From: an uncultured virus (IMG/VR IMGVR_UViG_2651869816_000009)
Taxonomy: Duplodnaviria > Heunggongvirae > Uroviricota > Caudoviricetes
DNA: 64,000 bases
Reading direction: 5' to 3' (one strand)
IMG/VR virus record: IMGVR_UViG_2651869816_000009
The notes under the pieces are model-generated. The model did not search any database and had not been told where the DNA came from. It saw only the letters and a program-made list of their open reading frames with translations. Positions 3,135 to 19,581 of this stretch are shown in pieces. Positions within the stretch are counted from its first letter, which is position 1. Each line of letters starts with the position of its first letter. The translations under genes were made by a program, and so were the position numbers.

Positions 3135-3329
3135 ATTTTAAAAATCGTAGAAATAAAAAAAGAGCCGTCAACCGACGGCTCCTTTTGTTTACAAAATTAT
3201 TCTTTTGTTAAAAATCTTATTCTTACAATCCTCCAATTTATTTGGTATGATGCAATTAACTAATAAAGATCCCGTTAACATATAACACACTTCTGCTGTT
3301 TATCAAATTTTCACAAGGAGGATTTTGTC

Positions 3330-3509
3330 ATGAAAACACCAAACGAATCTTTTGTATCCGTTTTAGGAAGATTATCCTTATCATTGGATGTTATATTTTT
3401 CTCCATAGCAACTTTAATTATATTTCTTGTCTCTACATATTTTTATAATCATAAATTCCCAAACCACAGATATCCTGCTTACCTTGAATTCCTTTCCTAT
3501 ATTGCATAA
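3330..3509 (+). CDS. 59-aa membrane protein (moron)
   Basis: RBS AGGAGG, hydrophobic core, terminator at about 3515-3547. Confidence 0.6.
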   Translation: MKTPNESFVSVLGRLSLSLDVIFFSIATLIIFLVSTYFYNHKFPNHRYPAYLEFLSYIA

Positions 3510-3588
3510 AAATCAAAAAATCCGTTTCCTAGTGGAGATGGATTTTTCCTTTTATTAATCAAACTATTCTTTTGTATAGTAATATGTT

Positions 3589-5246: not shown

Positions 5247-5398
5247 ATACTCACATCCTTTTTGAAATCTTAATAAGGTAATCTCTATATACTATGAGAC
5301 AACCCTTTTCTGAGTGAATACATGAGTTAACTTTTTTACAAAAGCCCTATTTTATACAAAATACAAAAGCCTGCTTATGCACGCTTAATCTGTAATAT

Positions 5399-6082
5399 CT
5401 AAATTAAAAAGTTCATCGCAATATGAATGATATTTCCATTTTGAACACCATTCAAGAAAATTCCACCATCACTTTTAACTGTAACCTCACAAACTGTTGG
5501 TCCATTGCCATATGCAAGTGCTGGGAAAGCAATACTTTGTACAGGGCGAAATCCAGCCGGAAGGGTTGCAAATACTGCTGTATTTGCTAGATATTTAACT
5601 GATCCAATGACAGATATTTGTTCCCCACTTCTCTTGTACTTTAAAATTCTATCAGGAACATTCTCTACCCCAGTTGTAGGAAGGTTAATCCAACCTGTAT
5701 CATTTGCTTGTCTAATTGTTCCATCTGTTCGAAGTTCTACTCTTTTGGACCAATCCCAAGTATCCCCCTGTTCCTTTGTAGAAGGAGCAAAAATCAGCTC
5801 TCCCTGCGCCCCTTTGTGAATGACTGTCTTATAAGAACGACTTCCCAGCACAATTGCGTTATCAATCTTAAATTCAAGTAATCCATTTATGATGTCGCCA
5901 GCTTTCTTAACAAGGTTTGTATTAGCGGAAACATTAAACGTTTTATTGTTACGATTATAATCCCAAACGCCTTGATTTCCTTTAACATCCCTAATCCCGT
6001 AATAACCATCCCCTGTTTGGTAGAAGTTGAGCTCTTCAACTCCTGCCGTAGAGAATGCTATTTTGTTAGTATTGGCTGTACC
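5399..6082 (-). pseudogene. 5'-truncated tail fibre/baseplate receptor-binding protein
   Basis: Frame open from 6082 with no start (in-frame TAA immediately upstream); NTNLVKKAGD, DTGWINL and FATLPAGFRP tail-fibre motifs. Confidence 0.75.
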
Positions 6083-6378
6083 TTATTGATTTGTATTTTG
6101 ATTATGGTACGTGAAGTTTTATTCTTCTTTCAGCTAACAACCACGACAGACACCATCGGAAAACTTATCAGGTTCTCCTAATTCTGTCTACCTAGGATGT
6201 TGTTAGCTCAAAGAAGAGCAAAAGCTCTCCTTATTAACGGTAACATCCAATCAGTACCATCTGCTGGTTTCGGATTTTATGTGCCGTCATTACGAACCGT
6301 TTAGAAATATAAGAACAACATAGTGAGTTGTGTTTTCCGCCACTTCTCACAATACAAATATATCATGTTAAAAACCAA

Positions 6379-6433
6379 AACGTGTCCGTAAATCGTTCGC
6401 AAATAGTCCGCAGATAGTTCACGAATAGTTCGC
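6379..6433 (-). promoter_or_regulatory. Five 11-bp tandem repeats upstream of a probable late promoter
   Basis: AACGTGTCCGT, AAATCGTTCGC, AAATAGTCCGC, AGATAGTTCAC, GAATAGTTCGC; extended -10-like TGATATATT on the minus strand at 6357-6365. Confidence 0.55.
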
Positions 6434-6439
6434 GTTTTT

Positions 6440-6688
6440 TTATTTTCTTTCTTTCTCTTCAGTTAACAATCTTGGGTTTCTTACTATGACTGACCAATCT
6501 TTACCAGAACTCCAATCAATACCTCCTATTAATTGAATGCCTTTTCCTGCACCGTTAATAATTGGAGTGAAATATTCTCGTCTTGCTTCAGTATTAGCCC
6601 GCAATGTTTCTCGTAAATTCTGCTCCACTTCATCATAAATGACTACACCGCAATTTAACCCATCATTACTTCTTGTGCTTTTTTTCAT
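6440..6688 (-). CDS. Hypothetical phage protein
   Basis: 82 aa ORF with RBS-like AAGAGG. Confidence 0.6.
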   Translation of the reverse strand: MKKSTRSNDGLNCGVVIYDEVEQNLRETLRANTEARREYFTPIINGAGKGIQLIGGIDWSSGKDWSVIVRNPRLLTEEKERK

Positions 6689-6746
6689 CGTTTTTCAGCC
6701 TCTTTTCACATAGTTTTGAATAAATATGTTCTTTAATCCTAGAAAA

Positions 6747-6865
6747 TGAATTAGCTATAACCTGGAGTGTGTTAAATTCATCTGTACGCATTTACCTCAT
6801 ATGTATCAAGCCTTTATGTATTATTACAGAAATGAATTTGACACGTTCAGTTTGTAGCTAATTCA
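6747..6865. repeat. Pair of 33-34 bp lox-like sites in inverted orientation; candidate site for the adjacent recombinase
   Basis: 6747-6780 TGAATTAGCTATAACCTGGAGTGTGTTAAATTCA versus the reverse complement of 6833-6865 TGAATTAGCTACAAACTGAACGTGTCAAATTCA. Confidence 0.7.
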
Positions 6866-6889: not shown

Positions 6890-7432
6890 TTAGATTTTAA
6901 ATTTCCTTTGATAATCGTTTAATGTATCTTGTTCAATTCCGATATATCTCAATGTTTCTTTTTGCTCTGTATGATTTAGCATTTGTTGTAAAACTGCTAC
7001 ATCTCTAAACTGTTGATAATGATGATATCCGTACGTTTTACGTAAAGAATGTGTCCCGATACGTTCTAATCCAAACTCTTGTGCTGCTTGATTTAATATC
7101 ACATAAGCCATTGCCCTTGTAATCGGTTTGTTTTTTCCATTCCTACTTTTAATCAAATACTCATTTTTAGGTTTCCCTTTCGTATAATCACGAATCGCCT
7201 TCTTTAATTCTGATGGCATCTTAATATCTTTTATTTTTCTTGTTTTCTTTTCACGTATAACAATATTCCAACCTTCTACATCACGAACACGTAGACGCAA
7301 TATATCTGATATCCTAAATCCAGTATTAATACCAAGAAGAAACAGAATGTAGTTTCTTTCATTCTGCTTCTTATAGAATTCTTTTATTTCTTGTATGATT
7401 TCTTTATTTCGAATTGGCTGTACAATGTTCAT
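6890..7432 (-). CDS. Small tyrosine recombinase (catalytic domain only)
   Basis: TGFRISD, HSLRKT, LNH and RYIG catalytic motifs; 180 aa. Confidence 0.92.
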   Translation of the reverse strand: MNIVQPIRNKEIIQEIKEFYKKQNERNYILFLLGINTGFRISDILRLRVRDVEGWNIVIREKKTRKIKDIKMPSELKKAIRDYTKGKPKNEYLIKSRNGKNKPITRAMAYVILNQAAQEFGLERIGTHSLRKTYGYHHYQQFRDVAVLQQMLNHTEQKETLRYIGIEQDTLNDYQRKFKI

Positions 7433-8194: not shown

Positions 8195-9376
8195 TCAGTT
8201 TACTTCGGTCAAACTTTGTAAATACGCTAATGAATGATCCTTCTTTTTTTCTATATATGCCTCAAAAAATGATAATTCAATATTAAGTAAATAACTTAAA
8301 AATTGTACATCACAATGATATTTCTTTAATAGTTGTTCTAACGTAATTGTTTTCTTATCCAAAACATGTCGGAATATACTTCTTATTTTCCCTGGACGAA
8401 TAATTGGAATTTCACTGTCTAATGGTTCTTTTATTTTATAACCATATCTATGCAATAGAACATTGAAATATCTATATTGTTGATAGCTCATGGCACCAAG
8501 AGAATACGCTCTATACCCCATAGCAGCAAGTGAAACCTTCCATTTTTGTTTCAATTCAATATAGTGATCTGGGTTTGAAATCTTACTAATGTATTGTAAA
8601 TCGCTCATAAATTCTTGTTTGGGCATTAAAAAATTAGATGCAAACATATGGGCCTCTTTCTCAATTTCATTATATTGACTTGTACTTAATTCACCAATAT
8701 CCATTTGATAATGTAATAGTAGATGCCCTAGTTCGTGTGCTAAATCAAAGTTTCTTCTTACTGATGATTTTTTTGTATTACCTAATACGATATATGGCCT
8801 ATCGTAATTCGTCCATGCGCTATATCCATCAATATCAACACCTAATGCCTTTTCCAGAACAAATACACCTTTTTTTTCTAACAAAAACATTAAGTCTTCG
8901 TTATTATCTTGGTTTAGTCCAAATTCCCTACGTGCTTTTAAAGCTATATTTTCAATAATTTCTTTTTTATTATTTTCACTAAAATTATGTTTATTTTTTT
9001 GTTCTATACTGTAACTCCTTACATCTACAACTATGCCCTTAGGATAGCTAACGAATTTTTCCATATAAGTTAGAACTTGTTCTATTTCATTCAGAAAAAT
9101 TTTGTCTGTTCTTTTCTTATACGGAACATTTTTTTCTGATCTATATGCAATATTATTTTCGTTAACAACATCCAATAATTCATCCTTCGTATAAAAAAAC
9201 TTTGTCCTTACATGAAACATAGATTTTAAATCATTAATTTTTTCCAAACTGGGGGATGTATATCCTCTTTCATATTGCCATATGGATTGTTCTGTTACCC
9301 CTAATTTACTAGCTAGATCTTGTCTTGATAATCCATATAGTAAACGCATGTTGGCTAACTTTTCACCAACAAACAT
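8195..9376 (-). CDS. XRE-HTH plus ImmA/IrrE (M78) metallopeptidase; Spr1629/RmrA-like antitoxin
   Basis: N-terminal HTH; RRNFDLAHELGHLLLH zinc motif; EKEAHMFASNFLMP. Confidence 0.85.
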   Translation of the reverse strand: MFVGEKLANMRLLYGLSRQDLASKLGVTEQSIWQYERGYTSPSLEKINDLKSMFHVRTKFFYTKDELLDVVNENNIAYRSEKNVPYKKRTDKIFLNEIEQVLTYMEKFVSYPKGIVVDVRSYSIEQKNKHNFSENNKKEIIENIALKARREFGLNQDNNEDLMFLLEKKGVFVLEKALGVDIDGYSAWTNYDRPYIVLGNTKKSSVRRNFDLAHELGHLLLHYQMDIGELSTSQYNEIEKEAHMFASNFLMPKQEFMSDLQYISKISNPDHYIELKQKWKVSLAAMGYRAYSLGAMSYQQYRYFNVLLHRYGYKIKEPLDSEIPIIRPGKIRSIFRHVLDKKTITLEQLLKKYHCDVQFLSYLLNIELSFFEAYIEKKKDHSLAYLQSLTEVN

Positions 9377-9398
9377 ACATCATTCCTCCTTAAAATAC

Positions 9399-10154
9399 TT
9401 AAATATCACCATCATTCTTTTCCACTGAAATATCCATGAGATCATAACTACCATCCGCAACCTTCTCTTCTGGATCTCTCTCATTTCTAACAGCATCAAA
9501 TTCTTCCGGTAAAAATTCAATGTTAGAAGTTTCAATAAACTTTTTCCAACTGTCTATACGATACATTGTCTTCGTTGCTGGATCAGGTAATATTAATTGA
9601 ATATCCGAAAGCCATTTTGTTTCACTATCAATAGAATATGCAATAATGTAAAATCGTTTAAACTTTTGCTTTAATACTTCTTCTTCAAGCTCTAAATCGG
9701 TTCCCCAAATATTTAATTGTTTTGGTTTAGATTCTATTTTGATCTCTTTCGGTATACGATCTCCGTAAATGGTAACATCATTATTTATTTCTGATAATTT
9801 ATTTATATAGTTTATTTCTTCATCAAATTTATTTTTTGAAGTTGGAATCACATTACTAACCGTTGAAGTGTTTTTTATAATAAACATGACCCTATCATTT
9901 TCATTTTTAAATTGTAAGTATCCCCACGTATAGCCCGCCTTGGCTTTTTTAAAGTTAATTCCTAATTTATCACACTCCATTTTTACATAATGATCAATAT
10001 GATTCCCCTTGACCCATGCATATGCACTACTTACAGTCAATGTCTTGCTTTTTTCTTTCCTTTCAACTAGATATGATTTATACCCCTTTAAAATCCCATC
10101 TACAATACGTTGAATTGTATGCTCCGAAAATTTATACTTTTTCATTCTCTTCAT
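9399..10154 (-). CDS. Spr1630-like putative toxin
   Basis: AYAWVKGNHID and KAGYTWGYL motifs as recalled for the Spr1630 family; immediately upstream of the HTH-M78 gene. Confidence 0.6.
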   Translation of the reverse strand: MKRMKKYKFSEHTIQRIVDGILKGYKSYLVERKEKSKTLTVSSAYAWVKGNHIDHYVKMECDKLGINFKKAKAGYTWGYLQFKNENDRVMFIIKNTSTVSNVIPTSKNKFDEEINYINKLSEINNDVTIYGDRIPKEIKIESKPKQLNIWGTDLELEEEVLKQKFKRFYIIAYSIDSETKWLSDIQLILPDPATKTMYRIDSWKKFIETSNIEFLPEEFDAVRNERDPEEKVADGSYDLMDISVEKNDGDI

Positions 10155-10295
10155 CTCCCTATGTATAATTTGACAAGCCGTCTATTATACATTTTAAACA
10201 AAAGGGGTATTTTTTTAAAGTGTTTTATATTATTATGCATGTAAATTAAACTATTTACTCTTGCAATTTTAATCAAAGGATTATTTTGTTTGGTT

Positions 10296-10505
10296 TTATA
10301 ATGCTCTTTTCTCTCTTAGTAACTGAATGTTATTAATTACAACCGTATGAGCATTGCATTTTTCTTTTAACAGATCCATTAGATCCAGGACATCTTTTCT
10401 ACTATTTAGTTTCGAACGGCTATTGAATAAATACGTGCAATCCGCATTACCGTTTTTTTGGTAATACTTATAAGAAATCAAATATTCAAATCTACGTGGC
10501 CTCAT
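10296..10505 (-). CDS. Hypothetical phage protein
   Basis: ORF with RBS AGGAGAGG. Confidence 0.6.
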   Translation of the reverse strand: MRPRRFEYLISYKYYQKNGNADCTYLFNSRSKLNSRKDVLDLMDLLKEKCNAHTVVINNIQLLREKRAL

Positions 10506-10554
10506 TTTCTTCTTCCTCTCCTGAATGAAACTCAATATTTTGTCAATACTGTAG

Positions 10555-10635
10555 ATGGAGGAATTTTTATATACCCATTAATTCCTTCCTTTCTTTAAGG
10601 GTTGAGCAGTTAGCTTTTGCTAGCTGCTCTTTTAT
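10555..10635 (+). ncRNA. Candidate sRNA unit 1
   Basis: SigG-like TGAATG-N17-AATACT upstream; CU-rich TTCCTTCCTTTC; terminator GAGCAGTTAGCTTTTGCTAGCTGCTC plus T tract. Confidence 0.4.
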
Positions 10636-10671
10636 TTTTTATCACTTTTTTTATAAAGTGACATACTTTGT

Positions 10672-10762
10672 ATTGAACACTTTTCAATACACCTTCATAA
10701 GGCCTGCTTAAATGTTTTAAATTCACTCCGAGAAAGAGCACTGTTCGAAGGTGCTCTTTTTT
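10672..10762 (+). ncRNA. Candidate sRNA unit 2
   Basis: SigK-like AC-N16-CATACTTT (10644-10669); 3' module AATTCACTCCGAGAAAGAGCACTGTTCGAAGGTGCTCTTTT repeated at about 13001-13041. Confidence 0.45.
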
Positions 10763-10809
10763 AATTTTACACATCCGAATATTCCTTAATATTTAACACA
10801 TACTATATA

Positions 10810-10900
10810 TGGGCGATAAGCCAGAACTCTTTTAACCGTCCATGTATTCCTTCACTTCTTATCTGTATCGAGCAGTTAGCTTTTGCTAGCTGCTCTTTTA
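10810..10900 (+). ncRNA. Candidate sRNA unit 3
   Basis: SigE-like TATT-N15-CATACTAT (10780-10806); CATGTATTCCTTC is antisense to an RBS+AUG; same terminator as unit 1. Confidence 0.45.
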
Positions 10901-11053
10901 TTTGCGAACACTTTAGACAAGATTTCATATAATATATCCAGTCCGTTCTTATAACTTAAGCTCGTCAATTTCGTTATAAAAATAGCGTTATATCCTATAA
11001 CTTTTTTCAGGAATCATACATATGTTATATATGAAAAAGTGACTCTGTTTTAT

Positions 11054-11086
11054 AAAAAGGCGGTTGCGGAAACAACCGCCTTTTTA
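11054..11086. terminator. Bidirectional intrinsic terminator
   Basis: AAAAAGGCGGTTGCGGAAACAACCGCCTTTTT. Confidence 0.75.
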
Positions 11087-11106
11087 TTTATGACAAAATG
11101 AAATTT

Positions 11107-11469
11107 TTATTCAATTTCTGCATCTAGACCATCGTCAATTAAGAAGTCACATAGTATATCTAAATCACCACTTGCCACAACCATTTCCCATGCTTCGCCT
11201 TCATAACCATATTCCTCCGCAAGATCATTGACCGCACGATTAAAATCTGTAAAATTAAATTCTCCATAATTAACAACCAAACTTCGAATGTTATCCGGTT
11301 CTTCCGTTTGTTCCGGTTTTAGCTCATCGATTGTTATATCTTTTTCAACTAGCACCTCTTCTTCGACATATCCATCACGAACACGATCAGCTGCTTGTTC
11401 TAATGTTTCCGCCTCTATAATTCCCTCGTACACCTTAGTTTCCGTAAACGTTACAGTAAAAGTTTTCAT
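11107..11469 (-). CDS. Acidic hypothetical protein (cassette)
   Basis: RBS AAGGAGA; bounded by boundary sites at 11094 and 11490. Confidence 0.7.
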   Translation of the reverse strand: MKTFTVTFTETKVYEGIIEAETLEQAADRVRDGYVEEEVLVEKDITIDELKPEQTEEPDNIRSLVVNYGEFNFTDFNRAVNDLAEEYGYEGEAWEMVVASGDLDILCDFLIDDGLDAEIE

Positions 11470-11506
11470 TATCCATTCTCCTTTTCTAATAAAATGAAGT
11501 TTTTGT

Positions 11507-11731
11507 TCAGTTTTCAATTAGTTCAAGCCCGTAACTTAATTTCAAATTACCTAATACATCTAACTCACCTACGTACCATTCTCTTCCTTGCGAATCTTCT
11601 GCAAAGTATTCTTCCGTTTCTTCGTGTAATTTCGCTTCTAGTATTTCGTTCTTTTTAACTTCTGCTATAATTTCATCTAAATCATCAAATTCTTTTGCAT
11701 CCTCTAATACTCTTACTTTAATTGTTTTCAT
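11507..11731 (-). CDS. Hypothetical protein
   Basis: 74 aa ORF coupled to the upstream gene. Confidence 0.7.
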   Translation of the reverse strand: MKTIKVRVLEDAKEFDDLDEIIAEVKKNEILEAKLHEETEEYFAEDSQGREWYVGELDVLGNLKLSYGLELIEN

Positions 11732-12132
11732 TTCTCTTCATCCTTCTTATATTCTCTTAATTTTTCTTGCATTTCATAAATACCAGAATGCACCTTCTTG
11801 ATATCTTGTTTTAACTGTTCCGGAACATCATCCACGAGTGCCAGTACCGTATTTGCCCAACTCATAAATTGAGAAGCATTCCCCATATAAGCTAAAGCTT
11901 GGAAAACATAATCCTCTTCCAATCCCAATGCTTTTAAATTTTCTAGATTCGGCCGATAATCTAATACATTATCTGAAAACCCATTATTAAGTAGCGCTTC
12001 ATTCATTGCGGATTGAATAGCATCAATGCCAAATTCAGAATATGCTTCGAAACATTCACGCACTGATTCTGGAGTCCATCCTTTTTCAACCAGTTCCTTA
12101 CACTTTTCAACCAACTCTTCATATGTTTTCAT
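11728..12132 (-). CDS. Hypothetical protein
   Basis: ORF with RBS AGAGG. Confidence 0.7.
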   Translation of the reverse strand: MKTYEELVEKCKELVEKGWTPESVRECFEAYSEFGIDAIQSAMNEALLNNGFSDNVLDYRPNLENLKALGLEEDYVFQALAYMGNASQFMSWANTVLALVDDVPEQLKQDIKKVHSGIYEMQEKLREYKKDEEK

Positions 12133-12288
12133 GGTTATCATCCTCTTTTTTTAATAAAATAGCGTTTTTGTTATTAAATCCTTTCATTACAATAATGTAA
12201 GGTTTTTGTAATGTTATTCGATAGTTAATTACATCCAAATGTTATTAAATACAGTTGTTACTGAAAAAACATATGGAGGAATTACAAC

Positions 12289-12657
12289 ATGAAAAAATTT
12301 CTTATTATCGCCGCTCTATTTTGTGTGGGACTAGGTGCATTTTTATTTAAGGGCGGAGTTATGGCTGATAGAATTAGTCCATTAGTAAAAACAGATGATT
12401 ATTATACAGTTGTAAAAACTGATGGAAAACATTTAGGTAAAGACTCTATACGTGAAGGTAGTGAAAGCTATGAACACAAATTCACTGGCTACAATGAAGA
12501 TGGTAAAGAGCAAGATATTACAATTAATGTAACTAAAGAACTTCGTCACGATGCTTACTTAAAAGTTATAGCTAAAGGGTCAAACGGAAAAACATGGATG
12601 GAAGTACAACCAAATGAGATTCCAGCAGCCGCTAAAGTAAAATTAGGGCTCAGATAA
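12289..12657 (+). CDS. YxeA/DUF1093-family exported protein (moron)
   Basis: Signal/TM segment; DDYY, GYNEDGKEQ, LRHDAYLK and WMEVQ motifs; own RBS GGAGG and terminator. Confidence 0.75.
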   Translation: MKKFLIIAALFCVGLGAFLFKGGVMADRISPLVKTDDYYTVVKTDGKHLGKDSIREGSESYEHKFTGYNEDGKEQDITINVTKELRHDAYLKVIAKGSNGKTWMEVQPNEIPAAAKVKLGLR

Positions 12658-12806
12658 ACTAATCGTACGCACGCTGTAGTTGGCTTATCCTCTACAGCCT
12701 TTTTAAATTCTGGACTCCTGTACAATCACCTCAAATAAATATTTTATTAATATTTTGATTTGAACATATAGTTGTCAAAATAATCAGTTGAGTGTTAAAA
12801 TACCAT

Positions 12807-12897
12807 AGATTCTCCTTAAGGAGTTATCATGTAATTAAACAAGAGTTTAAAAATTCTCGAATCTTAGCCCCTTGGAGCGCCCTTCAAGGGGCTGAAC
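12807..12897 (+). ncRNA. Candidate sRNA unit (SigA-type)
   Basis: TTGTCA-N18-TAAAAT with extended TG (12772-12801); hairpin TTAGCCCCTTGGAG...TTCAAGGGGCTGA; only an ATG-TAA minigene. Confidence 0.4.
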
Positions 12898-12969
12898 TAA
12901 TTAAAATAACGATTTATTGAGCTTTACACCTTTTTTTATCACCTATCTATATACAAATTCATACCCTAT

Positions 12970-13042
12970 ACAGATAGATGCTTTATCATATAGTTGACTG
13001 AATTCACTCCGGGAAAGAGCACTGTTCGAAGGTGCTCTTTTC
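12970..13042 (+). ncRNA. Candidate sRNA unit paralogous to unit 2
   Basis: ATCAC-N17-CATACCCT SigK-like promoter; 3' 41 nt nearly identical to about 10720-10760. Confidence 0.45.
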
Positions 13043-13148
13043 AATTAAACTAACGTCTTTGTTTAGGTTTCGACTTTCAATACTATTAACACAATCTTTT
13101 ACCTTACATAAGTAATAAAATATTTTTATATTCATAATACGGAAAGGT

Positions 13149-13352
13149 ATGATTAATATGTTTTTTGCAGCTACGCTTATAAATATTTGCGAAATTAATG
13201 AGGATTATCTTATAACTTGTACAATAGATAACCATTCTAAATTTGACTTTGTAATTTCTAAAAGCAAGGTGTATGGTACTCCATTTATAGGTGCACATGT
13301 TTCTGGAGTTTATGATGACAATAAAGAGATAACAAACATCTTTATTGAATAA
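13149..13352 (+). CDS. Hypothetical protein (inverted cassette)
   Basis: 67 aa ORF followed by hairpin ATGACACG...TGTCAT. Confidence 0.45.
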   Translation: MINMFFAATLINICEINEDYLITCTIDNHSKFDFVISKSKVYGTPFIGAHVSGVYDDNKEITNIFIE

Positions 13353-13413
13353 ATGACACGTTTTTTATGTCATTACATATATTTTTGATACCAAATAAGA
13401 ATTTTGTTTAGTT

Positions 13414-13656
13414 TTACTCCTCATCCCAACGCTCAACTCTTCCGCGTGACCAAGACCAAATACCATTCTTCTGCAATGTTTCTAATTCAATTTCTACTGG
13501 AACGTAGTCATCATCTAACTGCTGACTAATAAAGTCCTCGGCTACCTCTTTTGTAGGTAAGAAACAAGCTTCACTTAAATCCATTGCGTCCTCTTCTTTT
13601 ACGAAATCGTAAAATACATCTTCTTCATATTGATAAGCAAGCGCCCAAAATTTCAT
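13414..13656 (-). CDS. Hypothetical protein
   Basis: 80 aa, RBS AGGGAGA. Confidence 0.7.
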   Translation of the reverse strand: MKFWALAYQYEEDVFYDFVKEEDAMDLSEACFLPTKEVAEDFISQQLDDDYVPVEIELETLQKNGIWSWSRGRVERWDEE

Positions 13657-13672
13657 CTCTCATTCTCCCTTT

Positions 13673-13909
13673 CTATCTATCTTCTTTAATAAATGCTATT
13701 TCTTCGATAAAAATATCAATCGGTAGCAGCCAAGAAACGTACTGATTTTTACATCCGTTCCTATTCCATTTGAAAGTTGGGTCTAATCTATTAGGAAACT
13801 TCCCATCAGGCTTTCGTATCGTTGAGATTTTGATATTCTTCATTCTCATAAAATTTTCTTCACCTATTTTTGTCATTTGTCTATTTCTTGTATGTCTCAT
13901 CCGCTTCAT
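13673..13909 (-). CDS. Hypothetical protein
   Basis: 78 aa, RBS GGAGAGG abutting the site at 13917. Confidence 0.6.
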   Translation of the reverse strand: MKRMRHTRNRQMTKIGEENFMRMKNIKISTIRKPDGKFPNRLDPTFKWNRNGCKNQYVSWLLPIDIFIEEIAFIKEDR

Positions 13910-13932
13910 TCCTCTCCAAAATAACTATTTTG

Positions 13933-14535
13933 TTATAAAGTCACTGCTTCTGCTGCAGCTTCATTTTTCTCTAATTGCTCAATTACCATTTGTAACCCTA
14001 ACCAGTAGGCCATAAAACGATATGGTAAAACTTTTCCAAAATCATTAACATCTGATATTGTATCTGAATCCATTGAAGTAGTATGGTATGCATCATATAA
14101 CCAATATTGGTATTCACCTATTGATGAACTCTCATTAATCGCCGACAATATTTTCTCATGCATTTCTTCACCGTCTGATTCTATCTCGTTCATGTCGTTT
14201 TCATCCCAATAATCATTTAATTCTCTTCTAGCTTTTTTATTATCAAAATTCCACCGATCGCCCCTGTGAGCTTGTAATTTACCTGTAAAATAACTAAGGT
14301 TAAATCCTTTAATTTTTTCCAGAGTTGCTGCACATGTTAATGTATAAACCGCCTCGCCAATATCACCCGAAACAAATACATTTGATCCAGACAATACATA
14401 TTTAACGCGGTACATGTTTGTTCCTGGCTCTCCCCATTGAATAACTTGCAATCCTGCTTCGCCATTTATTTCCGCTACATGATTTCCGAACCAATTCTCT
14501 CTAATTTCTTTAGTTGCTTTTTCAATGTATTCCAT
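13933..14535 (-). CDS. Conserved phage protein of unknown function
   Basis: Long ORF with VSGDIGEAVY motif; coupled to the upstream gene. Confidence 0.75.
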   Translation of the reverse strand: MEYIEKATKEIRENWFGNHVAEINGEAGLQVIQWGEPGTNMYRVKYVLSGSNVFVSGDIGEAVYTLTCAATLEKIKGFNLSYFTGKLQAHRGDRWNFDNKKARRELNDYWDENDMNEIESDGEEMHEKILSAINESSSIGEYQYWLYDAYHTTSMDSDTISDVNDFGKVLPYRFMAYWLGLQMVIEQLEKNEAAAEAVTL

Positions 14536-14725
14536 TTTCTGATTCCCCCAGTTTTTTAATTCCATCGTTTACACTTTTTAATTGCTCTTCAAACATTTTT
14601 ATCATTGATCTTCTCATACGTTCGGTGTTAGTAGGATATAAAACGCGATCTTCTATATCCTCGATTTTATCTTCCAATCTCTTCTTCTCTTTATTTAACG
14701 TGTAAAGAGCGTGATTGTATGCCAT
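14522..14725 (-). CDS. Coiled-coil hypothetical protein
   Basis: 67 aa, RBS AAGGGG. Confidence 0.65.
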   Translation of the reverse strand: MAYNHALYTLNKEKKRLEDKIEDIEDRVLYPTNTERMRRSMIKMFEEQLKSVNDGIKKLGESENGIH

Positions 14726-14770
14726 ATCTATTCCCCTTTTTGACTAAAATAACGCTTTTGTTGAGTTTTA

Positions 14771-15466
14771 TTACCAACCAAAATTAGTAGGAACATACAC
14801 TTGTTGTTGTGTTCTAATGATTTGTCTTAAATCATTTTGAGGTGGCATATGATCCGTTTCTGTTACACGAATTAAATATCTCCATTCATGTTTCGTTGCT
14901 TCGATACCACGGTGGATATCAAACCAATCAAACTCAATTGGTGTACATGTAGGAGCTGTAAATACTTCTAATTCTCCTGTTGATACTTTTTCCCTCACTT
15001 GCTGATTCACCATGCTGTATAGCTTTGTATTTGGTTCTTCCGGTACATCTAGCTCTACAGGTTGTCCAATAAATTCTGTTAAACACCCTTCACCTGTAAC
15101 GAGTAAATGGAATCTGCTGTCAGTTAAGTAGTCTTGCGAAAAAATATTAGGAGCTGCTTTTGCTTCTGGTCGTAATTCTTTTCCTCTTGGGACACCATCA
15201 CTATGCCAATTAGGAATCGCTGGACACATGCCAGGCATTAACATATGAACTTTGGTATCTACTACAATGTATTTACGGTCGTGTCGTAAATTCATAGATC
15301 CAATGGCCGCCTTTGTAAGTTCTCCCCCATATTTCAGTGCATCATCTAATGAAGCGTTCCATAATGCTGGTGTATTCTTTAACACTTCAATACTCGGCTG
15401 CTCAATTGCTTTATCGTGACCTATATAAACTGGATTTCTATTGAATTGAAATTTAACTGTTTTCAT
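14771..15466 (-). CDS. Putative 2OG-Fe(II) dioxygenase-fold protein
   Basis: WHSDG (HxD), distal DIHRG (His) and WRYLIRV (Arg). Confidence 0.55.
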   Translation of the reverse strand: MKTVKFQFNRNPVYIGHDKAIEQPSIEVLKNTPALWNASLDDALKYGGELTKAAIGSMNLRHDRKYIVVDTKVHMLMPGMCPAIPNWHSDGVPRGKELRPEAKAAPNIFSQDYLTDSRFHLLVTGEGCLTEFIGQPVELDVPEEPNTKLYSMVNQQVREKVSTGELEVFTAPTCTPIEFDWFDIHRGIEATKHEWRYLIRVTETDHMPPQNDLRQIIRTQQQVYVPTNFGW

Positions 15467-15564
15467 TTTTCTCTCCCCATTTCTTAATAAAATTCAAATT
15501 TTGCACCATTTAATTTACTTTTATTGTATTTATTTATAAAGTCATTACGACTTTACCCTTATAC

Positions 15565-15600
15565 AAAGAGCCATGAGCCTTCACAACTCATGGCTCTTTT
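15565..15600 (+). terminator. Intrinsic terminator within a non-coding cassette
   Basis: AAAGAGCCATGAG-CCTTCACAA-CTCATGGCTCTTTT. Confidence 0.7.
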
Positions 15601-15625
15601 CATTACAAACTCCATAATTCATATT

Positions 15626-16102
15626 TTAAAAGAATGCTAGTTGCCCATCCGGTCTTTCTAACAATGAAACAGATTCCTGTTTTGACGTTTCTTTAACTTC
15701 TTCTGGTACTGCTGCTAATTCTTCAAAATTAGCAAACCAATGTATCGGAAAACATCCACATAATTTTTCGCGTTCTCGATCATGCCAGAAGAAACAATGT
15801 GTACCTTTAGGTTTTATAATGTAATCCTTAAGTGGTTTATGTTTATAGCCTTTTGTTCGCCAAATTAATTGAGCTTTATAGAATTTACTTTCATCTAAAT
15901 TCGGCATATTAATTTGCGGTTCTGATGTCCAAACCTCGTTTTCTACCACTTTAAATCTCTCTACTGGATAACATCCAAAATGCGATTCCTTACGATCGAA
16001 TTTACTGACATAGTAATGATTAGGCTTAGCCGGGAATAAAAAATATTCTTCATTTATTCCTAGTAGAGCTGAATGATCCACATCTATGCACATACCTTTC
16101 AT
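15626..16102 (-). CDS. Conserved B. cereus phage early protein
   Basis: 158 aa with two HFGCY/CGCF-type repeats and GQLAFF C-terminus (beta-clamp-motif-like). Confidence 0.75.
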   Translation of the reverse strand: MKGMCIDVDHSALLGINEEYFLFPAKPNHYYVSKFDRKESHFGCYPVERFKVVENEVWTSEPQINMPNLDESKFYKAQLIWRTKGYKHKPLKDYIIKPKGTHCFFWHDREREKLCGCFPIHWFANFEELAAVPEEVKETSKQESVSLLERPDGQLAFF

Positions 16103-16105
16103 TGC

Positions 16106-16615
16106 TTAATACCCGTTATTCTGACGTTGATGATTTACTTCGTTCTTCTTGTAATAACCTTGCTCAATCTCTTCAAATGTAAATTCTAATTTCTTACCTA
16201 ATCCTAAGTAGGAATATAGCAATTCTTCGTACAACTCCCTATCTTGAGTTGCACGAAATTCCGATACAGCTTCATATACATTGTTGAATTGACTGACTAA
16301 CGAACTTGCAGAAAAAACATTTGCGTTGTGATTTAAAAATTCTGCACTATATTCATTAGGATTAAAGCCAATACCATTGCCTAATGAGGCTATGAAATGT
16401 AAACCGTCAACATATTCCATCAGAATAACTTCTTTTTCACTTGGCCCTTTATTGCTCCAATGCTTAAAGCATCTAGTTTCATTTGCAAGCTCTCCAATTT
16501 CAACCTGTAAAGCAAGAATCATATTGTAAAATAAATTTACTCCTTCTAATCCGTGCTCCTTAACGATTCTTGTATCTAATACCTTTTGCATTCCGAATAT
16601 TTTAATTAAATTCAT
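16106..16615 (-). CDS. Dimeric dUTP diphosphatase
   Basis: EIGELANETRCFKHW, EYVDGLHF and KNEVNHQRQ motifs. Confidence 0.9.
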   Translation of the reverse strand: MNLIKIFGMQKVLDTRIVKEHGLEGVNLFYNMILALQVEIGELANETRCFKHWSNKGPSEKEVILMEYVDGLHFIASLGNGIGFNPNEYSAEFLNHNANVFSASSLVSQFNNVYEAVSEFRATQDRELYEELLYSYLGLGKKLEFTFEEIEQGYYKKNEVNHQRQNNGY

Positions 16616-16634
16616 TTTGATTTCCCCTTCCTAT

Positions 16635-16886
16635 TTAGCAAATCCCTAATCCTATCGGACGATTTTCAATTAAATACTTATCAGCCTGATCTATTACAAG
16701 AAGTGCAACTTCCGCTTGGTGTCTCCTTAACGCTTTTGCCATCCTTGGTAAGCTCATACCTTGACTCCACATTTCACGAAAACGAACTACATCTCTTTCA
16801 TCCCAAATGAAGTTAGCCTCTTCTAAAGCGATGTATACCTTCAAGCGTGATTCCTTCATCGCTTCATGATTTCTTGCGACACTCAT
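16635..16886 (-). CDS. Small HTH-like phage protein
   Basis: FREMWSQGMSLPRMAKALRR. Confidence 0.65.
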   Translation of the reverse strand: MSVARNHEAMKESRLKVYIALEEANFIWDERDVVRFREMWSQGMSLPRMAKALRRHQAEVALLVIDQADKYLIENRPIGLGIC

Positions 16887-16913
16887 AAGCGACCCCACTT
16901 TCTTATTAAATAA

Positions 16914-17078
16914 TTAATCTATCTTTTCATTAGAAGTAGTTTTGACATGGACACCCTTACCGTTCACCCAAATTACGACTTGCTCACCAAAACCGCTTTC
17001 TGGCGGGTTGAATGAAAGGATTTCACCATCTTTTACTACAAGGAGTTTATTACTTGTAACATCGATTTCTTTCTTCAT
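16914..17078 (-). CDS. DUF3954-like small phage protein
   Basis: VVKDG...PPESGFGEQVVIWVNGK. Confidence 0.65.
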   Translation of the reverse strand: MKKEIDVTSNKLLVVKDGEILSFNPPESGFGEQVVIWVNGKGVHVKTTSNEKID

Positions 17079-17098
17079 ATGTCCCTCTCCCTTTTTTC

Positions 17099-17458
17099 TC
17101 ACTTCATGTACTCGACAACATCTGGCTTAAATCCACTTCCTAAGTAAATCCGTACCGGGATTATTTCTTTTTTATCCCTTGCTGCCTTACACAATTCTTC
17201 GGCTGCATCCCAATTAAAAAACTTATCTACAGCTCGTTGAAATCTCCAAATTGCCATTGTATAGTGTTCAAAGATGTCATAACGATCATCTTGTTTAGTT
17301 GTACGTGGTAATTCATCCGTGCATTTAGCGTTCTTGGGAACATGAACGCGTACATCTGCATATGTAACCCGACCAGGTCCCCTCTTTACATTTGCTTTCA
17401 TTACATCGAACTGACAAATTTCTGGTTCTACATCAAAAATATTTAGTTGTTTAGGCAT
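17099..17458 (-). CDS. Conserved phage protein
   Basis: 119 aa ORF in the early operon (MPKQLNIFDV). Confidence 0.7.
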   Translation of the reverse strand: MPKQLNIFDVEPEICQFDVMKANVKRGPGRVTYADVRVHVPKNAKCTDELPRTTKQDDRYDIFEHYTMAIWRFQRAVDKFFNWDAAEELCKAARDKKEIIPVRIYLGSGFKPDVVEYMK

Positions 17459-17729
17459 GTTCCATCACATTCTTTTGAAGGAGGTCCAGTAACTCACTTG
17501 CACCTTTCTTACTCAAAAACATTCGCCCATCTAACAATTCAATGTTGGATTCAGACACTTCGCCAGTTACAAAGCATGATTTTTCTTGTTTTTTCAAAAT
17601 GATGTTTTCTCCATAAATATGAAAGTCTACAGCTGTACCTTCAGCAATCCCCAAAGTTCTGCGTAACTCTACTGGAATTACTACACGCCCTAACTCATCG
17701 ACTTTTCTTACAATACCTGTATTTTTCAT
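17451..17729 (-). CDS. AbrB-family transition-state regulator homolog
   Basis: MKNTGIVRKVDELGRVVIPVELRRTLGI. Confidence 0.92.
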   Translation of the reverse strand: MKNTGIVRKVDELGRVVIPVELRRTLGIAEGTAVDFHIYGENIILKKQEKSCFVTGEVSESNIELLDGRMFLSKKGASELLDLLQKNVMEHA

Positions 17730-17743
17730 CTTTAACTCCCCCC

Positions 17744-18229
17744 TTAATTTGAAACCAGTTCACGAAACATTTCTTCATTTTTTGTATCAAGCGCATAATC
17801 AATAAGTTGGTACTTGATTAATCGGTCAATCTCGGCATGATCTTCTTCATTAAGATATGGCGTTAATGTACAATCATCATTTCCAACTACTTCCAGATAC
17901 AGTTTATTGCCATATTTTCCTGTGAAATTTATTTGAATGTAAATTGTGTCCTCTCTATTCTCTTCAAAATGTTCAAATGTACTGAAACTACTCATAACAA
18001 TTTCATCCCGTTTAAAAAACATGAACTCGTTATCCCCTAATGATTCTTCTGAAATTTTAATTGCATATGCATACGCCTTAGCATCTTCAACAAATTGAAC
18101 TCGCTTTGCGAAATGGTCATATTTATTGAATGTAAATAAAAGTCGATAACCTTCATCACCTTTTACTAAGACGTTCCTTAACAGGAAATCCATGAAAGCT
18201 CGTTTTTTATCAACCGGAACTTTTTTCAT
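17744..18229 (-). CDS. YpiB/ReoY-like protein with IDEAL domain
   Basis: KKRAFMDFLL...VQFVE...IYIQINF...IDYALDTKNEEMFREL. Confidence 0.7.
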   Translation of the reverse strand: MKKVPVDKKRAFMDFLLRNVLVKGDEGYRLLFTFNKYDHFAKRVQFVEDAKAYAYAIKISEESLGDNEFMFFKRDEIVMSSFSTFEHFEENREDTIYIQINFTGKYGNKLYLEVVGNDDCTLTPYLNEEDHAEIDRLIKYQLIDYALDTKNEEMFRELVSN

Positions 18230-18232
18230 ACC

Positions 18233-19312
18233 TTACTCCCCTTTAGTATTTTTATATTTGTTTAAAATCTCATCAAAACGTTTCTGACTATCTTCAAGAT
18301 CATCACTTGGAGTTTGCTGCGGTTGTTGTACTGGTTCATGTTCTTCCTGCTGATGTAACCAATCTGGTACAGCTTCAGTTCGGTTAGCATAACCTTTGCC
18401 AGTACGCTTTTTATTTTTCTTACTCATTTCGAATCTAGTATCTAATGCTACAACATCATTTACTGTTTTTACCTTTGCCTTTTCCCAACTACTTAAAATA
18501 CTTCGGATATACCTCCATTTTGGTACATTTTCATCAATTGCTTTATTAACAGCGTGAGTAATTAATTCATTACCGAATCTATCACAAAACTCACCTAATT
18601 CTTGGATTGCAATTTCACTTAACGGAATACCCTTTTTAAGTAAAAAGTTGTAACTGATTTTAAATTCTTGATCAATTAATTTTTGAGATGAAGTAGCATT
18701 ATCATCATCATTTATATTTGTAGTAATCTCTGTAGTAATATTTGTAGTAATCTCTGTATTTGTCTTACGTTCTAATGTAAGAGGCTCTTCCGTTTCATCG
18801 TAAGAGGGTGTTCCTTTAGAATGTAAGACCCTCTTACTTTCTGATGTAATAGGGCTATTACGTTTCAAAGTAGGAGGGTTGTCATTCCCCCAATACATAA
18901 CGGATATTTTTTGAATCATTTCAGGTATGGGTTCAACATACATAACGTTATTGCACCTTGTCCCATTAACAACAATCGTCCTAAATTCAATTTTTATAAG
19001 ACCACGTTCTTTTAAAAAATCGCACGCTTCTTTCACTTGCCTTTTTGTAAATCCAAACGAATCGGCTAATTGTTGATAGCTTTTTTGGAGCATGTCTGCC
19101 TTGAACTTTTGCTTGTATTGAACTTGATTAGATTCTTCACTTCTTACTTCAGTAGGTTTATACCAATACACGAATTCTCCTAAGACAGTAATTGCAACAA
19201 TATTAGGTTTGCCATTATCTAACGTGAGTGTTTTAAACCATCCATGATCTATTACATTGCCACGAAAATTTATTTGTCCTATTTGTAATACCTTGTTGTT
19301 CATAGCCTTCAC
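18233..19312 (-). CDS. Phage replication initiator with DnaD domain
   Basis: N-terminal wHTH (KSYQQLADSFG); DnaD-like WRYIRSILSSW; internal iterons. Confidence 0.85.
   Translation of the reverse strand: MKAMNNKVLQIGQINFRGNVIDHGWFKTLTLDNGKPNIVAITVLGEFVYWYKPTEVRSEESNQVQYKQKFKADMLQKSYQQLADSFGFTKRQVKEACDFLKERGLIKIEFRTIVVNGTRCNNVMYVEPIPEMIQKISVMYWGNDNPPTLKRNSPITSESKRVLHSKGTPSYDETEEPLTLERKTNTEITTNITTEITTNINDDDNATSSQKLIDQEFKISYNFLLKKGIPLSEIAIQELGEFCDRFGNELITHAVNKAIDENVPKWRYIRSILSSWEKAKVKTVNDVVALDTRFEMSKKNKKRTGKGYANRTEAVPDWLHQQEEHEPVQQPQQTPSDDLEDSQKRFDEILNKYKNTKGE
18700..18880. repeat. Probable replication origin iterons of prophage 1
   Basis: Five about 23-bp-spaced units (e.g. CGTTCTAATGTAAGAGG, CGTTTCATCGTAAGAGG, CGTTTCAAAGTAGGAGG) plus 12-bp TGTAGTAAT-containing repeats. 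Confidence 0.6.
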
Positions 19313-19525: not shown

Positions 19526-19581
19526 TAAATCACCTCCTTATTTATCAAACGGTAATTTTGTTAAAAATCTGAAATTCTATT

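What the first reader, a model, noticed from the sequence alone, without database searches (positions are those of the whole stretch)
10274..15628. Integron-like cassette array: a 15-16 bp quasi-palindrome marks most unit boundaries in the prophage accessory region
Seen in sequence, motif YAAAN-N5/6-TTTTR: 10274 CAAAG-GATTA-TTTTG, 10527 GAAAC-TCAATA-TTTTG, 10978 AAAAA-TAGCGT-TATAT (degenerate), 11094 CAAAA-TGAAAT-TTTTA, 11490 TAAAA-TGAAGT-TTTTG, 12155 TAAAA-TAGCGT-TTTTG, 12732 CAAAT-AAATA-TTTTA, 12902 TAAAA-TAACG-ATTTA, 13046 TAAAC-TAACGT-CTTTG, 13392 CAAAT-AAGAA-TTTTG, 13917 CAAAA-TAACTA-TTTTG, 14745 TAAAA-TAACGC-TTTTG, 15488 TAAAA-TTCAAA-TTTTG, 15613 CATAA-TTCATA-TTTTA. Stop codons overlap or nearly abut one arm (11107, 11507, 13933, 15626), and the next RBS sits within about 10 nt of the other arm. 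Units are promoterless 1-2 gene cassettes, inverted morons with their own signals, or non-coding units. Sites flanking one unit often share the spacer (TGAAAT/TGAAGT, TAACG/TAACGT, TTCAAA/TTCATA), as expected for site-specific insertion. I saw no such sites between the core genes from 15626 to 19312. Established: inverted arms around a 5-7 bp overlap is tyrosine-recombinase core-site architecture, and Tn916-type enzymes tolerate mismatched overlaps. Inference: a phage gene-capture and shuffling system. The enzyme is unknown; candidates are the 180-aa recombinase at 6890-7432, the integrase, or a trans-acting one. Caveat: the motif is AT-rich and low in information.
Basis: partly seen in the sequence, partly recalled or inferred. 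Interest (0 to 1): 0.88.

Follow-up and report, generated by a model that had tools for sequence, protein, structure and literature searches.

The report
Addressed gene-swap slots in Bacillus phages
Viruses of Bacillus cereus-group bacteria carry a row of short look-alike DNA signposts, each with its own six-letter address in a fixed order, and they trade the genes between matching signposts, which gives very different viruses one shared plug-in gene library.

Summary
The motif is real: on the transcribed strand it reads AAYAAAA-N6-TTTK. A matrix built from other phages finds 11 sites in the window's accessory region against 0.24 expected. It does not behave like an integron. The 6-bp spacers are slot addresses in a fixed order (TTTGAA, GCGTTA, TAGTTA, TTCTTA, TCCTTA, TCTTTA, TCGTTA, ACGCTA, ACTTCA, ATTTCA, TAATCC). 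The order holds for 1558 of 1587 site pairs, and for 1164 of 1202 in held-out contigs. Slot contents vary widely (368 unit types among 469 units).

Homology between phages ends at the edges of the 13-bp core, and 262 of 340 junction pairs share the spacer. The known gamma/W-beta island swap is bounded by two such sites. The adjacent 180-aa recombinase is not needed in cis and has a different conserved element of its own.

Best reading: spacer-matched cassette exchange between co-resident phages, working like Acinetobacter pdif modules, by a trans-acting tyrosine recombinase (host XerD is the lead candidate). The enzyme is not identified and nothing was tested at the bench. This scan had noted part of it before on other DNA (e1-1956286), as a shared gene-junction leader.

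The parts
15609..15633 (-). Decayed first site (TATGAA where relatives have TTTGAA); end of the conserved core
   Evidence: 2.3 bits; alignments with relatives begin at 15610-15616
15484..15508 (-). Slot site TTTGAA (address 1). The non-coding unit 15509-15608 with a terminator lies between two TTTGAA-like sites
   Evidence: 11.5 bits; TCTGAA>TTTGAA unit in 3 relatives; terminator 15568-15589
14771..15466 (-). Cassette gene, 231 aa, unknown function (phrog_1843), slot TTTGAA>GCGTTA
   Evidence: Phage TP21T matches window 14745-15484 alone; L029 matches 14770-15484
14741..14765 (-). Slot site GCGTTA (address 2)
   Evidence: 22.5 bits; alignment end 14762 in L001
13933..14725 (-). Two-gene cassette (67 aa and 210 aa, phrog_5051), slot GCGTTA>TAGTTA
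   Evidence: L027 matches 13918-14549
13913..13937 (-). Slot site TAGTTA (address 3)
   Evidence: 23.4 bits; alignment ends 13918/13939; shared with other contigs of the same runs
13414..13909 (-). Two-gene cassette (78 aa and 80 aa), slot TAGTTA>TTCTTA
13387..13411 (-). Slot site TTCTTA (address 4)
   Evidence: 22.6 bits; alignment ends 13410/13414
13149..13352 (+). Inverted 67-aa cassette gene between TTCTTA and ACGTTA
   Evidence: L047 and L062 match 13084-13414
13042..13066 (-). Variant site ACGTTA
   Evidence: 10.5 bits; L042 matches 12932-13049
12898..12922 (-). Slot site TCGTTA (address 7) with a damaged left arm; non-coding units on both sides
   Evidence: -1.9 bits; alignment ends 12915/12933; L037 matches 12742-12915
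12727..12751 (-). Variant site TATTTA
   Evidence: 13.6 bits
12289..12657 (+). Inverted YxeA/DUF1093 cassette gene, 122 aa
12151..12175 (-). Slot site ACGCTA (address 8)
   Evidence: 19.1 bits
11507..12141 (-). Two-gene cassette (137 aa and 74 aa), slot ACGCTA>ACTTCA; the internal gene junction near 11726 is a breakpoint without a site
11486..11510 (-). Slot site ACTTCA (address 9)
   Evidence: 26.7 bits
11107..11517 (-). Cassette gene for an acidic protein, slot ACTTCA>ATTTCA
   Evidence: L008 matches 11087-11507; SpaA1 and BceA1 match 11095-11523
11090..11114 (-). Slot site ATTTCA (address 10)
   Evidence: 19.4 bits; alignment end 11110 in L007
10269..10293 (-). Slot site TAATCC (address 11, last canonical site)
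   Evidence: 21.5 bits; commonest spacer, 65 hits in 70 loci
10195..10219 (-).
   Evidence: 14.6 bits; L016 alignment ends at 10226
8195..10154 (-). RosmerTA (RmrT/RmrA) toxin-antitoxin defence pair, cargo after the last site
   Evidence: PADLOC and NCBIfam hits; shared with L016 and L019
7429..7914 (-). ArpU late activator; fixed downstream flank in this phage type
   Evidence: TIGR01637
6890..7432 (-). 180-aa catalytic-domain-only tyrosine recombinase; not required in cis for the array
6745..6865 (-). Conserved inverted-repeat element following the 180-aa recombinase, unlike the slot motif; probably its own site (coordinates approximate)
   Evidence: Conserved in most relatives and in two other genera, no inverted central segment seen
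19541..19565 (-). Isolated site TTACCG in the early region
   Evidence: 19.2 bits; TTACCG/TTATCT/TTATCG in 9 relatives
5335..5359 (-). Site TAGGGC between the tail remnant and the lysis genes
   Evidence: in some phages a 319-aa tyrosine recombinase gene follows this site type
3555..3579 (-). Site GAATAG just after the endolysin gene
   Evidence: also in W-beta, SpaA1 and IEBH
3308..3332 (-). Site TCCTCC, post-lysis accessory region
   Evidence: 17.7 bits
3188..3212 (-). Site GAATAA, post-lysis accessory region
   Evidence: 20.1 bits

Best explanation
An ordered array of heterospecific recombination sites, in effect natural recombinase-mediated cassette exchange. Each site has two inverted arms common to all sites and a 6-bp spacer specific to its slot. 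When two phage genomes share a cell (prophage with prophage, or with an incoming phage, or with an array left on a plasmid), a crossover at one pair of same-spacer sites and a second crossover at another pair swap everything between them. Different spacers stop neighbouring sites from deleting each other and keep the register; occasional one-mismatch events give deletions, duplications and moves to the next slot. Shown by comparison: sites, order, breakpoints confined to the core, spacer matching, independence from the phage's own 180-aa recombinase. Inferred: catalysis by a tyrosine recombinase acting in trans through a cointegrate. My split of the 0.65: host XerD alone or with XerC 0.3; the phage 319-aa recombinase found beside a tail-end site 0.15; another host or phage enzyme, including 180-aa types, 0.2.
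For: Order: 1558 of 1587 pairs (shuffled 57%, max 61%), 55 of 64 loci fully ordered; held-out contigs 1164 of 1202 pairs. Contents differ, e.g. 46 types among 50 ATTTCA>TAATCC units, and no consensus extends beyond the arms. In pairs sharing one side, identity drops to the unrelated-site baseline directly outside core positions 0-12, with no longer homology tails than baseline (p 0.07-0.62). Spacers match in 262 of 340 junction pairs (random 7.8%), and 38 of the other 78 differ by one base (random 7.8%). 276 of 457 array-internal breakpoints lie at sites vs 62 by chance. The median perfect tract between same-spacer sites is 16 bp, under the 23-27 bp (Red-beta) and 31-34 bp (RecA) minimum quoted in PMC3945230. 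Gamma and W-beta are 100% identical in the compared stretch except a block from the TTTGAA site to the TAGTTA site, the 1360/2823-bp swap described in PMC4113786. The left arm read inward matches the host dif XerD arm at about 7 of 9 positions. pdif modules exchange this way (PMC13141974).
Against: No enzyme identified, and no circle, cointegrate or back-joint seen (contigs only, cannot show rare forms). The sites replace the inner TTAT/ATAA of dif sites by TTTT/AAAA, and the matrix scores true dif-like sites of the same hosts at -18 to -34 bits. 181 of 457 breakpoints are not at sites, and the Fah deletion is not. Only 35 of 66 close whole-unit pairs keep both spacers. W-beta, IEBH and phBC6A51 arrays are partly out of order. 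The gamma left junction shares 21 bp with the donor-like locus L012, near the Red-beta minimum. Pairs are not phylogenetically independent, and the matrix was trained on breakpoints of the first locus set.
Confidence: 0.65

Rival explanations
1. Boundary-sequence model. The motif is kept for another reason (binding site of a regulator or nucleoid protein, or an RNA signal at gene junctions) and serves only as micro-homology for RecA-independent annealing, template switching or a phage annealing protein. Same-spacer sites recombine because they give the longest match, which also preserves order.
For: It predicts fixed order and spacer matching without a dedicated enzyme. The sites overlap stop codons and precede RBSs. 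No recombinase gene is common to all array-bearing phages. The gamma left junction has 21 shared bases.
Against: No excess homology beyond the core at junctions; median shared tract 16 bp, below published minima. The arms are palindromic and common to all 11 slots, which micro-homology does not need. 146 of 469 units hold no called gene and 66 only inverted genes, so an RNA signal is unlikely. phi105-like phages, mosaic in the same region, break at RBS/ATG without such a motif. No annealing-protein family among the window's early genes scanned.
Confidence: 0.25
2. Integron-like capture: single cassettes excise as circles and insert at a site, driven by the adjacent 180-aa recombinase or the integrase.
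For: 7 of 469 units have the same spacer on both sides, and the window's 15509-15608 unit sits between two TTTGAA-like sites. The recombinase gene lies near the array in 27 of 58 motif-selected contigs.
Against: Fixed order; no circle-specific arm pairing; arrays in phages without the enzyme, and the enzyme without arrays; a separate conserved element beside the enzyme; integron-integrase models score far below cut-off.
Confidence: 0.07
3. The sites are inherited relics of an ancestral array and no longer direct recombination; breakpoints look site-bound only because selection removes others.
For: Some sites are decayed (12902, 15613), and arrays survive on plasmids and chromosomes without phage genes.
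Against: Spacers are nearly invariant across phages sharing 0-4 kb of DNA with the window's prophage. The recent gamma swap ends at sites. Selection cannot explain breakpoints confined to 13 bp beside non-coding units.
Confidence: 0.03

Closest known systems
pdif (dif) modules of Acinetobacter Rep_3/OrfX plasmids, XerC/XerD (PMC13141974, passages read)
   Same: Arms around a 6-bp spacer; modules with genes, or empty, between sites; crossover in the site; identical or one-mismatch spacers needed; single modules replaced through cointegrate formation and resolution.
   Different: pdif sites keep the TTAT/ATAA inner arms and alternate C/D and D/C, with inversions and shuffling. Here the inner arms are TTTT/AAAA, both arms look alike, all sites point one way, about 11 spacers form a fixed address series, and the carriers are temperate phages of several genera.
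Integrons (IntI, attI, attC) (recalled)
   Same: Arrays of mostly promoterless one- or two-gene units, stop codon often inside the site, a very large cassette pool.
   Different: No integron integrase, no attC hairpins, no reordering, no growth at one end; units are replaced in register.
Tn916/Tn1549 ends and targets (PMC5871717, passages read)
   Same: AT-rich arms around 5-7 bp.
   Different: Opposite polarity (TTTT-n6-AAAA) and independent of spacer homology.
PeSL cassettes of T4-type phages (PMC2839356, abstract and outline only) and lambdoid boundary sequences (recalled)
   Same: Repeated intergenic elements at which accessory genes are exchanged between phages.
   Different: PeSLs are promoter-terminator units; here the shared element is a 13-20 bp core with slot-specific spacers and no stem-loop.
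Engineered recombinase-mediated cassette exchange with heterospecific lox/FRT sites (recalled)
   Same: Common arms; different spacers make sites mutually incompatible and give in-register exchange.
   Different: Natural, about 11 addresses in series, enzyme unknown.

Membership tests
Integron | Integron integrase (IntI) beside the array | tested here: not met
   TIGR02249 41 and 72 bits vs cut-off 265 for the two window recombinases; arrays in phages lacking both
Integron | attC sites: long imperfect hairpins, one per cassette | tested here: not met
   Conservation limited to about 25 bp with a 6-bp spacer; no circle-specific arm pairing
Integron | Excision and reinsertion that reorder cassettes | tested here: not met
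   98% and 97% of site pairs in one order
dif/pdif module system | Two arms around a 6-bp spacer | tested here: met
dif/pdif module system | XerC and XerD arms with inner ATAA/TTAT | tested here: not met
   Inner arms are AAAA/TTT at 91-99%; host dif and pdif-like sites score -18 to -34 bits
dif/pdif module system | Alternating C/D and D/C orientation | tested here: not met
   All typed spacers read on one strand
dif/pdif module system | Crossover in the site, needing identical or one-mismatch spacers | tested here: met
   300 of 340 junction pairs within one mismatch; step profile; comparative evidence only
dif/pdif module system | Dependence on host XerC/XerD | not testable with these tools
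   XerC- and XerD-like genes present in 4 of 4 hosts searched
Tn916-like element | TTTT-n6-AAAA polarity and homology-independent crossover region | tested here: not met
PeSL-type regulatory cassette | Promoter plus terminator stem-loop as the repeated unit | tested here: not met
   Promoter-like sites not enriched (20 vs 26 in shuffles); the terminator-like sites found lie inside units, not at slot sites

The most novel reading that the evidence does not exclude
B. cereus-group phages of at least six genera, plus array remnants on plasmids and chromosomes, share a universal addressed socket system. About 11 heterospecific Xer-like sites in fixed order, with further addresses around the lysis module, are recombined by a host Xer-type enzyme working on symmetric variant arms. 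The whole phage community thereby draws on one library of more than a thousand cassettes without encoding the enzyme.
Probability: 0.35. Interest if true: 0.95.

Novelty: new variant of a known kind. Interest (0 to 1): 0.87.

Why it matters
Phage mosaicism is usually ascribed to illegitimate or relaxed homologous recombination followed by selection. Here a phage community appears to have a dedicated, addressed exchange code, and this can be tested directly with short synthetic sites. It gives a sequence-level account of the gamma phage's acquisition of its fosfomycin-resistance island. It also explains how spore-surface collagen-like genes, DNA methylases, Abi-alpha and Mrr-like genes move among B. 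cereus-group prophages. The sites delimit a large, mostly unannotated gene pool: 61 of 100 long cargo proteins had no Pfam hit, and Chao1 gives about 1400 unit types. A natural set of about 11 orthogonal sites would also interest genome engineers.

Tried and rejected
No whole genome is held for the window, so co-resident prophages were seen only through run contigs. Those showed 20-35-nt matches at sites but no back-joints; contigs cannot show absence.

The 180-aa recombinase as cis enzyme was rejected. Inversion of the segment in its own downstream element was not seen in the loci printed. The host 321-aa Xer-like paralogue appears to lack the first catalytic Arg by eye and was dropped. The 319-aa phage recombinase is in only 7 of 104 genomes and is not followed by a second site. 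A de novo palindrome screen of three non-cereus phages carrying its homologues failed on both positive controls, so it says nothing. A gene shared by all array-bearing phages was sought among nine genomes; only structural, lysis, dUTPase, HTH and one ~70-aa family recurred. ComK boxes (AAAA-N5-TTTT, recalled) differ in spacing and were not pursued.

Ten literature searches returned no description of this array. The library lacks most subscription journals; the original gamma/W-beta and Cherry genome papers were not read, and no supplements were opened. Ten near-duplicate loci and those with under 1 kb upstream were dropped before counts (70 of 85 sequences kept). Pfam was run on the 100 longest of 166 cargo ORFs and PADLOC on the 50 longest; two of the 100 are core genes caught by a stray upstream site.


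Full report
Setting. The window holds a B. cereus-group prophage, by its matches to named phages. It is transcribed on the minus strand: integrase 22650-23756, AimR-like regulator, replication and dUTPase core 15626-19312, accessory region, RosmerTA pair, ArpU, a 180-aa tyrosine recombinase, a tail remnant and lysis genes. Head and most tail genes are not present between 5851 and 6890, so it looks defective (inference).

The observation. The listed strings are present. I collected related loci by ArpU and by the recombinase, kept 69 non-redundant ones, and trained a matrix on their mutual breakpoints without the window. Consensus on the transcribed strand: (T/C)TWAAYAAAA-N6-TTT(T/G)R. It finds 11 sites in window 10190-15640 against 0.235 expected. 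Alignments of the window with relatives end at the sites, including around non-coding units such as 12742-12915 and 12932-13049.

The spacers are addresses. Across the loci the spacers recur in one order: TTTGAA, GCGTTA, TAGTTA, TTCTTA, TCCTTA, TCTTTA, TCGTTA, ACGCTA, ACTTCA, ATTTCA, TAATCC. 1558 of 1587 pairs follow the majority order (shuffled 57%), and 55 of 64 loci are fully ordered. A second set of 58 viral contigs, picked only by one 22-nt site, gave 1434 concordant and 44 discordant pairs, 50 of 58 fully ordered; the 49 not in the first set gave 1164 and 38. The window carries 9 of the 11 in order. Contents are diverse: 368 clusters among 469 units, Chao1 about 1400. Exceptions include repeated runs of the series (L047, L042, L228, IEBH) and partly scrambled arrays (W-beta, phBC6A51).

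The crossover is in the core. For site pairs sharing the upstream unit only (115 pairs without TTTGAA), identity is 75-100% up to position +12 and 62, 66, 51, 43, 32, 32% at +13 to +18, against a baseline of 57, 65, 47, 46, 47, 36%. For pairs sharing the downstream unit (149), identity at -1, -3, -4, -5 is 66, 78, 32, 52% against 60, 72, 33, 56%. Perfect-match tails at junctions are no longer than baseline. Of 340 junction pairs, 262 share the spacer, 38 differ by one base and 40 by more; random pairs share it 7.8% of the time. 276 of 457 array-internal breakpoints lie at sites against 62 by chance; 181 do not. These pairs are not independent, and this set trained the matrix.

A documented event. 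Gamma and W-beta are 100% identical over the compared stretch except for one block (1361 vs 2823 bp) that runs from the TTTGAA site to the first base of the TAGTTA core. PMC4113786 (passages) describes this 1360/2823-bp replacement as the acquisition of the fosfomycin-resistance island. The resistance gene sits in the GCGTTA>TAGTTA slot. A prophage locus carrying the same block (L012) shares 21 bp with W-beta at the left junction. Among nine Wbetavirus-like records most array breakpoints fall at sites; the Fah deletion does not. In four sequencing runs holding this prophage, other contigs share 20-35-nt stretches at the window's sites in the same order.

Which enzyme. Ordered or partly ordered arrays occur in SpaA1, phi4J1, W-beta and z1a (whole records; z1a has only two strong sites), IEBH (50,000 of 53,104 bp), TP21T (49,901 of 51,949) and phBC6A51 (45,000 of 61,395). 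None has a tblastn hit to the 180-aa enzyme. Conversely phi105, 28 phi105-like loci found through ArpU, and three non-cereus genomes with the enzyme lack the array. The enzyme has a conserved inverted-repeat element right after its gene, unlike the slot motif. So the catalyst, if there is one, acts in trans. The left arm read inward (TTTTGTTWA) resembles the XerD arm of the host's probable dif site (TTATGTTAA, L207:497; reference dif sites in PMC3025954, passages), but with the inner A changed in both arms. True dif-like sites of these hosts keep it and score far below zero on the slot matrix. A second candidate is a 319-aa phage tyrosine recombinase encoded about 70 bp after the tail-end site in some phages; it is in 7 of 104 genomes and may be cargo.

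Extent. A strict multi-spacer pattern matched 88 of 105 genomes in the family: 357 matches vs 15 controls in the first 70 rows, and 29 vs 7 in the last 35 (genus labels not given). Arrays occur in four named B. cereus sensu lato species and also on large plasmid-sized contigs and chromosomes without nearby phage genes. Further addresses flank the lysis module in part of the phages: GAATAG after the endolysin (20 hits among 81 sequences) and TAGGGC/TACGGC before the holin (10 hits); many of these loci have none. Cargo among the 100 longest of 166 proteins: 9 collagen-like, 8 DNA methylases, 4 YopX, 2 Abi-alpha, 2 Mrr-like, 1 glyoxalase/Fos-type; 61 had no Pfam hit.

Mechanism and rivals. The best model is spacer-matched double exchange through a cointegrate, as described for pdif modules (PMC13141974, passages). 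The main rival is micro-homology at a motif kept for another purpose. It also predicts order, but the shared tract (median 16 bp, 95th percentile 25) is mostly under the minima quoted in PMC3945230 (passages), no homology tails appear, and it does not explain common palindromic arms. Integron-like insertion fits at most a few units (7 of 469).

Relation to known work. It fails membership of integrons, pdif modules, Tn916 and PeSLs on tested features, while working like pdif exchange and engineered cassette exchange. Ten searches of the held library found no description of it; subscription papers and supplements could hold one. The few lines shown do not mention ordered spacers, the core-confined crossover or the enzyme tests. 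It pointed me to the PeSL paper (abstract and outline only).

Verdict. The feature is real and the slot-exchange behaviour is well supported (about 0.9). Site-specific catalysis is likely (0.65). The enzyme is open.

Noticed in passing
L208, L209, L210, L219, L220 (G001, G003 small contigs): True dif-like sites (XerC-type arm, 6 bp, TTATGT arm) in several copies, some as pairs 77 bp apart, around small genes on small plasmid-like contigs: apparent pdif modules in the B. cereus group, distinct from the phage slot sites.
   Followed up: partly
window 6745-6865: Conserved ~120-bp inverted-repeat element after the 180-aa recombinase gene, varying with the enzyme across genera; probably the site of this widespread uncharacterised recombinase.
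   Followed up: partly
window 8195-10154: RosmerTA anti-phage toxin-antitoxin pair carried after the last slot site.
   Followed up: partly
L318:1592-2560; L150:19125-20084: 319-aa tyrosine recombinase between tail and holin genes, with homologues in Enterococcus, Staphylococcus and Lactobacillus phages of 75-93 kb; function unknown.
   Followed up: partly
L393, L394, L395, L396, L400: Slot arrays on large plasmid-sized contigs and chromosomes without adjacent phage genes, often holding collagen-like genes; possible cassette reservoirs.
   Followed up: partly
L398:2467: A single site with spacer TATTTA recurs once per genome in many hosts; in the one copy fetched it lies at a gene end in chromosomal DNA.
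   Followed up: no
window 10604-10633, 10870-10900, 10722-10760, 13002-13040: Two terminator-like elements each occur twice inside different units; they break assemblies and may give site-independent exchanges.
   Followed up: no
L188, L211, L212; L214-L218: Hosts carry a chromosomal 179-aa relative of the 180-aa recombinase, and 313-323-aa Xer-like paralogues that seem to lack a catalytic Arg.
   Followed up: partly
window 5399-6688: Head and most tail genes are missing between the recombinase and a tail-gene remnant, so the prophage looks defective while its array is intact.
   Followed up: no
window 28529-29467: Class A beta-lactamase-like ORF in host DNA, recognised by eye from the translation.
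   Followed up: no
L410+L411 (Enterococcus phage nattely): TATA-N7-TATA occurs 37 times vs 5.5 expected; probably a promoter motif.
   Followed up: no
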